A stretch of 64,000 nucleotides of DNA, taken from NCBI GenBank assembly GCA_964016885.1, contig OZ024742.1, positions 116,126,001-116,190,000 on the forward strand, read 5' to 3'. Below are positions 57,201-57,699 of this stretch, piece by piece. Every line of letters starts with the position of its first letter. Positions within the stretch are counted from its first letter, which is position 1. The position numbers and the translations under genes are program-made. The notes below the pieces were generated by a model. It was not told the DNA's origin. It ran no database searches and saw only the letters and a list, made by a program, of their open reading frames with translations. The stretch comes from Eledone cirrhosa. Taxonomy: Eukaryota.

Positions 57201-57361
57201 GGACACTACCGTAAACTCTTGGTAGATTTATCTACATATATATATATATATATATATATATATATATATATATATATATATATATATATATATATATATA
57301 TATATATATATATATATATATATATATATATAATTATGTAATAAACAACATAAGGCAATTA

Positions 57362-57422
57362 TTTCATTTACCAGCGGTTTCTTAAAAGCAAAACAAATTT
57401 GCTTTCACTCATCAGAATGAAA
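57362..57422 (-). ncRNA. Type I hammerhead ribozyme
   Basis: TTTCATT-CTGATGA-GTGAAAGCAAA..TTTGCTTTTAA-GAAA-CC GCT GG-TA-AATGAAA. Confidence 0.8.
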
Positions 57423-57522
57423 AGATCCTGGCGTATTTATTGACTTTGGATTTTAAAAACAAAAATGCAATCCTTTGCATTTTTGTTTTTAAAATCCAAA
57501 GTCAATAAATACGCCAGGATCT

Positions 57523-57583
57523 TTTCATCCTGATGATTGAAAGCAAATTTTTTTTGCTTTTAAGAAACCACTGGTAAATGAAA
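57523..57583 (+). ncRNA. Type I hammerhead ribozyme, predicted cleavage after 57576 (GUA)
   Basis: TTTCATC-CTGATGA-TTGAAAGCAAA TTTTT TTTGCTTTTAA-GAAA-CC ACT GG-TA-AATGAAA. Confidence 0.8.
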
Positions 57584-57699
57584 TAATTGCCTTATGTTGT
57601 TTATTACATAACTATTAAGCTCTGTTACCTACATAGAGCACTCTTTTTTCCTGGACTTTTCCGACGGAATTACTTCATTTACACACATATATATATGTA

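What the first reader, a model, noticed from the sequence alone, without database searches (positions are those of the whole stretch)
57331..57680. Rod-shaped 283-nt palindrome with hammerheads of both polarities
Seen: a near-perfect rod with a 4-nt loop and complete cores on both strands (7-bp stem I, perfect in the minus copy; 10-11-bp stem II; 3-bp stem III; GUA site). It superficially resembles viroid-like RNAs with ambisense ribozymes, but here the symmetry comes from inversion. A transcript from either strand would pair the ribozyme with its own antisense, a possible self-silencing switch (inference).
Basis: partly seen in the sequence, partly recalled or inferred. Interest (0 to 1): 0.7.

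Follow-up and report, generated by a model that had tools for sequence, protein, structure and literature searches.

The report
Penelope retrotransposon stump, back-to-back hammerheads
This DNA hairpin is a short stump of an abundant Penelope-like jumping gene, made of two back-to-back copies of the element's ribozyme-bearing end, and it likely arose as an ordinary by-product of insertion, not as a viroid-like RNA or a self-silencing switch.

Summary
The rod is real: arms 57334-57470 and 57475-57611, 4 mismatches, 4-nt loop, one type I hammerhead core per strand. It is not a one-off. A 25-mer of its hammerhead matches 5,012 places in the genome. The right arm plus a 65-nt extension is the pseudo-LTR and tail of a Penelope-like retrotransposon. 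Locus L068 carries the same rod directly before a 711-aa ORF whose predicted fold best matches telomerase RT and which has the Hydra-clade motifs. Copies end at two fixed points 65 nt apart, mostly in (TA)n, and 37 of 37 rods parsed pair one tailed with one tail-less arm. Inverted pLTRs, one-sided tails and nearby hammerheads on opposite strands are all published PLE features (PMC8557442, PMC4209133, PMC3846280). Likely mechanism: both cut target ends prime on one uncleaved sense RNA and the two truncated copies join head to head. A read-through transcript would bury the ribozyme, but nothing suggests a switch. No RNA data were available. This scan reported similar PLE palindromes on other DNA of this genome. 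Ordinary; modest mechanistic value.

The parts
57236..57332 (.). (AT)48 microsatellite, left flank and likely insertion target
   Evidence: 83 of 91 family copies end in TA/CA repeats
57330..57470 (-). Inverted, tail-less, 5'-truncated pLTR copy (short-end arm)
   Evidence: outer end equals the family's fixed short end
57362..57422 (-). Type I hammerhead, minus copy: core 57415-57409, predicted cut after the GUA at 57371-57369
   Evidence: activity untested
57471..57474 (.). Junction (loop TCCT): the arms stop within 2 nt of each other, 2 bases not matched to the family, no microhomology
57475..57615 (+). Direct 5'-truncated pLTR copy
57523..57583 (+). Type I hammerhead, plus copy: core 57530-57536, stem II 57537-57563, GAAA 57564-57567, GUA 57574-57576
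   Evidence: activity untested
57616..57680 (+). 65-nt one-sided tail, equal to the start of the element's 5' UTR
   Evidence: in L068 and L071 the same sequence runs on into the ORF start about 115 nt later
57681..57730 (.). CA/TA/TG microsatellite, right flank, overlapping the outer end of a second unrelated palindrome

Best explanation
The rod is a minimal insertion of an endonuclease-bearing Penelope-like retrotransposon: two 5'-truncated copies of the element's hammerhead-containing pseudo-LTR joined head to head in a (TA)n tract, one with the 65-nt tail and one without, likely made when both cut ends of the target each primed reverse transcription on one uncleaved sense RNA. Shown: family, element structure, ORF, two fixed outer ends, the one-tailed-one-tail-less rule. 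Inferred: the element's GIY-YIG domain nicks the TA repeat; RT starts at two internal sites 65 nt apart; both copies read through the uncut hammerhead and stop at or short of a boundary near 57467, perhaps the RNA's 5' end; the two ends are joined bluntly (here) or through short self-complementary words (many other copies). The hammerhead is the element's own, predicted to need a dimer. The rod has since drifted and has no function of its own.
For: Family: 972 candidates, 40 scored at 95-98% identity; 5,012 exact 25-mer matches, control 0. Link to ORF: L031 runs from an endonuclease C-terminus through about 1.9 kb of 3' sequence into this pLTR and tail; L068 has rod, 5' UTR, 711-aa ORF and a downstream pLTR; L071 has pLTR-ORF-pLTR. 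Protein: model pLDDT 93.8, top four Foldseek hits telomerase RT, best E 2.3e-8; Atlas neighbours carry HTH_animal, GIY-YIG, RVT_1. Ends: of 91 copies from a position-ordered sample, 50 end at the short and 40 at the long site, 1 elsewhere; 83 of 91 run into TA/CA repeats. 37 of 37 rods parsed (38 given) have one tailed and one tail-less arm; the tail-less arm reaches further upstream in 10, the tailed arm in 10, equal in 17. Both arms here share a T>C at 57521 seen in 3 of 133 copies; 5 of 24 rods share rare variants between arms, one a change in the catalytic core. Only 35 rods genome-wide turn around near the cut site. Literature: PMC8557442, PMC4209133, PMC3846280, PMC11167929.
Against: Pfam and PDB sequence searches gave no significant hit for the ORF, so its identity rests on fold, Atlas neighbours and motifs read by eye; no tree with reference PLEs was built. 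No target-site duplication can be read in the microsatellite. Arm asymmetry could also come from later deletion at palindrome centres, and shared variants from gene conversion; 19 of 24 rods show no shared rare variant. The lack of 5' ends upstream of the boundary (0 against 41 in equal 67-nt bins, arms of one rod counted separately) may reflect a pyrimidine tract that cannot anneal, not an RNA start, and L025 in the similarity-ranked set folds back there.
Confidence: 0.9

Rival explanations
1. Same element, different route: one cDNA folds back on itself, or an antisense RNA self-primes as proposed in PMC3846280, and the endonuclease trims the second arm at the short end.
For: 17 of 37 junctions are symmetric, several at self-complementary words. 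The short end is AT-rich like the target. PMC8557442 ascribes the tail to endonuclease-mediated resolution; PMC3846280 favours self-priming on an antisense template.
Against: In 10 of 37 rods the tail-less arm holds upstream sequence that the tailed arm lacks, which fold-back of the tailed cDNA cannot supply. This rod's junction has no stem or microhomology in the family sequence. A PLE protein in vitro extends both target strands and starts at two sites that bound the tail (PMC11167929).
Confidence: 0.3
2. One reading: a selected self-silencing ribozyme switch, in which the rod holds the hammerhead off until it is unwound.
For: In rod transcripts the hammerhead helices have probability 0.0; both cores are intact.
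Against: The form is a stereotyped insertion product: 23 independent short rods among the first 100 listed matches (three rows dropped). Arms carry unrepaired changes in stems I and II. The core varies no less among copies (1.9%) than the sequence 3' of it (1.2%). No route to unwind a -200 kcal/mol duplex is apparent. The isolated cores form stem III with probability only 0.08-0.12.
Confidence: 0.03
3. Integrated copy of a viroid-like or retrozyme circular RNA with ribozymes in both polarities.
For: Rod shape and two hammerheads; animal retrozymes are related to PLE pLTRs (bioRxiv 10.64898/2026.07.22.740005).
Against: The two ribozymes are the same sequence inverted, so each strand has one sense copy that pairs only with its antisense. 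No tandem monomers at this locus. The centre varies across copies from q-8 to q+72, so there is no unit-length circle. The sequence is contiguous with a PLE ORF elsewhere.
Confidence: 0.03
4. Miniature inverted-repeat DNA transposon or assembly artefact.
For: Long inverted repeat, high copy number, TA flank.
Against: Arms are asymmetric (tail on one side) and 46 of 90 copies extend more than 75 nt upstream of the rod's centre position into the element body; arms differ at 4 sites; a public contig carries 57345-57423 with no difference (possibly the same sample as the assembly).
Confidence: 0.02

Closest known systems
EN+ Penelope-like element insertions with inverted 5'-truncated copy and one-sided tail (PMC8557442, passages and section 11 read; PMC3846280, passages read)
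   Same: pLTR with hammerhead, adjacent inverted truncated pLTR, tail at one end only, partial tandems, microsatellite target, single RT plus C-terminal endonuclease ORF
   Different: Tail is 65 nt against 30-40 nt; this copy holds only pLTR ends, no ORF
Hydra clade of PLEs (PMC8557442, section 11)
   Same: RWK, DKT, CxCX5C linker, CxxC and CxH around the conserved E and N, canonical hammerhead, (TA)n target
   Different: Element is about 4.0-4.9 kb from pLTR to pLTR because of a long microsatellite-rich 3' region, against 'generally <3 kb'; no tree was built
PLE hammerheads (PMC4209133, parts 1-2 of 4 read)
   Same: Type I, long helix II, tiny near-palindromic helix III suited to a dimer; that paper already reports dual motifs about 100-700 bp apart on opposite strands
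   Different: Helix II closes with U-A, not the conserved G10.1-C11.1; helix II is 11 bp
Poseidon PAc of Anolis (PMC11167929, parts 1-2 of 4 read)
   Same: Two fixed ends bounding the tail, AT-rich target, template read through an uncut hammerhead
   Different: Other clade; here the tail lies in the 5' UTR, not in the ORF; inferred from genomic copies only
Viroid-like RNAs with ambisense ribozymes and animal retrozymes (abstract listings; bioRxiv 10.64898/2026.07.22.740005 part 1 of 5; viroid features recalled)
   Same: Rod-like fold, hammerhead on each strand
   Different: Perfect DNA inversion of one ribozyme, no tandem monomers, no fixed unit length, no RNA seen

Membership tests
EN+ Penelope-like element | Single ORF with telomerase-like RT | tested here: met
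   In relatives, not in the window: 711-aa ORF, YRDD motif, top Foldseek hits TERT; Pfam blank
EN+ Penelope-like element | C-terminal GIY-YIG endonuclease | tested here: inconclusive
   VVY...YVG on two predicted strands read by eye and GIY-YIG in neighbouring Atlas clusters; no direct profile hit
EN+ Penelope-like element | pLTRs flanking the ORF in partial tandem | tested here: met
   L068, L071
EN+ Penelope-like element | Inverted 5'-truncated copy and one-sided tail | tested here: met
   37 of 37 rods parsed; L068
EN+ Penelope-like element | Type I hammerhead in the pLTR | tested here: met
   (sequence and fold only)
EN+ Penelope-like element | Target-site duplication | tested here: inconclusive
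   flanks are microsatellites
Hydra clade | RWK, DKT, CxCX5C, CxxC and CxH motifs | tested here: met
   read in P0002 against the list
Hydra clade | Insertion into (TA)n | tested here: met
   83 of 91 copies
Hydra clade | Generally shorter than 3 kb (a tendency in the paper, not a criterion) | tested here: not met
   L068 3412-8299, L071 3260-7292
Hydra clade | Groups with Hydra RTs in a tree | not tested
   no reference Hydra proteins were fetched
Non-LTR retrozyme | Head-to-tail tandem monomers each with a hammerhead | tested here: not met
   criterion
Viroid-like ambisense RNA | Fixed-length unit with distinct ribozymes in each polarity | tested here: not met
   one ribozyme inverted; centres vary from q-8 to q+72
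Viroid-like ambisense RNA | Circular RNA that self-cleaves | not testable with these tools
   no RNA holder listed

The most novel reading that the evidence does not exclude
The family's copy ends record the Penelope integration reaction: twin priming from both target ends at two RT start sites 65 nt apart on one uncleaved sense RNA, with run-off at the RNA's 5' end near 57467. That would settle, against antisense self-priming, how PLEs build their head-to-head ends, and would show the hammerhead is not cut in the template.
Probability: 0.45. Interest if true: 0.5.

Novelty: new member of a known kind. Interest (0 to 1): 0.22.

Why it matters
As a locus it matters little: it is one of roughly a thousand such stumps (extrapolated from 23 rods per 100 matches to 5,012 matches) and the architecture is in print. 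It is a useful warning that PLE debris mimics viroid-like ambisense ribozyme pairs in motif scans. The family as a whole, young and with at least one unbroken ORF, gives a large natural data set on an open point, which strand PLEs copy and how the inverted end is made.

Tried and rejected
Rfam scan: no hit. Genome search with the 3' 121 nt alone returned nothing because of the tool's filters; replaced by exact patterns. Pfam on P0001 and P0002 and PDB sequence search: nothing significant. RNA evidence: no RNA holder listed; four contig runs of unknown kind, one study, show the family but none spans the junction. Cleaved RNA as main template: only 35 rods turn near the cut site. The stem II probabilities had an index error and are replaced. 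The arm-to-arm distances were distorted by alignment across junctions and are not used. Rows dropped: 9 of 100 listed matches had contexts identical to another or were not recovered; of 26 rods, L161 (false pairing), L110 (interrupted) and L103 (duplicate of L099) were dropped; L134 was not parsed. Conservation figures for GAAA, stem II 3' and stem III are biased by the search pattern and are not used. Paper searches listed no paper on this family or on twin priming in PLEs; the supplements of PMC8557442, which list Hydra families, were not read and may hold it.

Full report
Observation. The window is AT-rich animal DNA dense in microsatellites, from a 3.0-Gb assembly. The rod is as described: 137-bp arms at 57334-57470 and 57475-57611, four mismatches, loop TCCT, far beyond chance (z -38.6). 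Each strand carries one type I hammerhead: CUGAUGA, a 10-11-bp stem II, GAAA, a 3-bp stem III with a 3-nt loop, GUA, and a stem I of 7 pairs in the minus copy and 6 in the plus copy. Stem III is weak as a monomer (probability 0.08-0.12 in the isolated cores) but nearly self-complementary, -8.2 and -6.8 kcal/mol as a duplex, the design that PMC4209133 links to dimeric activity. Below, q numbers count from 57475 = q1.

It is a dispersed repeat. The right arm plus the next 65 nt has 972 candidate matches; the 40 scored are 95-98% identical apart from the window itself. A 25-mer from the hammerhead matches exactly 5,012 times, the reversed control 0; a second 25-mer 5,474 times.

It is the end of a Penelope-like element. 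In L031 the same sequence is preceded by about 1.9 kb of microsatellite-rich DNA and then the last 99 codons of an ORF. Searching with that peptide led to long copies. L068 has (TA)n, an inverted arm, the direct copy, then the 65-nt extension running on into a 5' UTR, a 711-aa ORF, and another direct copy with tail; L071 has direct copies on both sides of a broken ORF. So 57475-57615 is the pseudo-LTR and 57616-57680 is the tail, equal to the start of the 5' UTR. The protein has no Pfam or PDB sequence hit but 1,336 homologues at E<=1e-10 among 7,998 scored; Atlas neighbours carry HTH_animal, GIY-YIG and RVT_1; the model (pLDDT 93.8) matches telomerase RTs first. It has the RWK, DKT, CxCX5C, CxxC and CxH motifs listed for the Hydra clade. 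No tree was built, so the clade is likely, not shown.

The rod is the family's standard short product. I took the first 100 listed matches on contig C1, ordered by position, not by likeness, and recovered 91 distinct contexts. 50 end at q136-144, 40 at q203-208, 1 elsewhere; 83 run into TA/CA repeats; none of the 91 continues into the 5' UTR. 26 rods were flagged, 23 after dropping a false pair, an interrupted copy and a duplicate; all join one short and one long end, with centres from q-8 to q+72. Adding similarity-ranked rods and mini-rods, 37 of 37 parsed (38 given) follow the rule. The window's rod, centred at q-1.5, is typical. Scaling 23 per 100 matches to 5,012 gives roughly a thousand such rods (extrapolation).

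This architecture is published. PMC8557442 (passages, section 11) describes an inverted 5'-truncated copy next to the upstream pLTR and a tail at one end. PMC3846280 (passages) shows the same and notes that head-to-head palindromes are the common form. PMC4209133 (parts 1-2 of 4) places hammerheads in pLTRs and reports pairs about 100-700 bp apart on opposite strands.

How it likely formed. PMC11167929 (parts 1-2 of 4) shows a PLE protein cutting AT-rich DNA, extending both strands, starting at two internal RNA sites that bound the tail, and using uncut RNA. The copies here fit that. Two fixed ends, one per arm, point to two priming events. The tail-less arm reaches further upstream in 10 rods, the tailed arm in 10, neither in 17; fold-back of a tailed cDNA cannot give the first class, though later deletion at the centre could. 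Both arms of this rod share a variant found in 3 of 133 copies, and 5 of 24 rods share rare variants, one in the catalytic core, which suggests one template molecule or later conversion; 19 of 24 show none. Only 35 rods turn around near the cut site, so the template was mostly uncleaved. 5' ends are absent from q-75 to q-9 (0) and common from q-8 to q58 (41) among 90 (arms of one rod count separately), which may mark the RNA start, or only a tract that cannot anneal; L025 is an exception in the similarity-ranked set. The run-off and twin-priming readings were also offered by earlier notes of this scan on other DNA of this genome; I had not framed the RNA-start idea before reading them, and they are not independent support.

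The switch idea. A transcript across the whole rod does lose all three hammerhead helices. But both ribozymes face outward from the centre, the arms have taken unrepaired changes in stems I and II, the core is no more constant across copies than the sequence behind it (1.9% against 1.2%), and no RNA could be examined. Read-through would more plausibly yield long double-stranded RNA for silencing or editing (own knowledge, untested); no A>G excess was seen.

Verdict. Real, correctly described, and explained: a stump of a probable Hydra-clade Penelope-like element in the known inverted-pLTR-plus-tail form. Confidence 0.9 in the identity and by-product reading, about 0.6 in twin priming over fold-back. 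Interest 0.22.

Noticed in passing
window 57687-58183, with a fragment at 56861-56967: A second, unrelated palindrome of about 500 nt directly beside the rod, flanked by microsatellites; only a loose CUGACGA...GAAA match on each strand; its outer 63 nt match a repeat at 81-86% (114 candidates, 40 scored).
   Followed up: partly
window 43828-44425, 22104-22404, 19903-20077: Further palindromes with type I hammerhead cores of other families; 24 low-repeat inverted repeats were listed in the window in all, many next to (TA)n.
   Followed up: no
window 11160-11519, 50439-51215, 18418-18630: Fragments of other PLE ORFs, 35-47% identical to P0002.
   Followed up: no
L067 5993-6093, L068 6290-6393, L069 6136-6231 (ORF-forward coordinates): A second, diverged hammerhead/pLTR copy sits 280-420 nt after the stop codon inside the element's 3' region, as if an older pLTR was kept when the element lengthened.
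   Followed up: no
family copies, q-55 to q-18 (for example L071 upstream of 3260): A polypyrimidine tract ending in CAG just upstream of the rod-centre boundary looks like a 3' splice site; PLE pLTRs are known to hold introns.
   Followed up: no
L021: Both arms carry the same change in the hammerhead core, so the core may not be needed in the copied RNA.
   Followed up: partly
L068 3739-5874 and L069: Unbroken 711-aa ORFs; the family is young and may still be active.
   Followed up: partly
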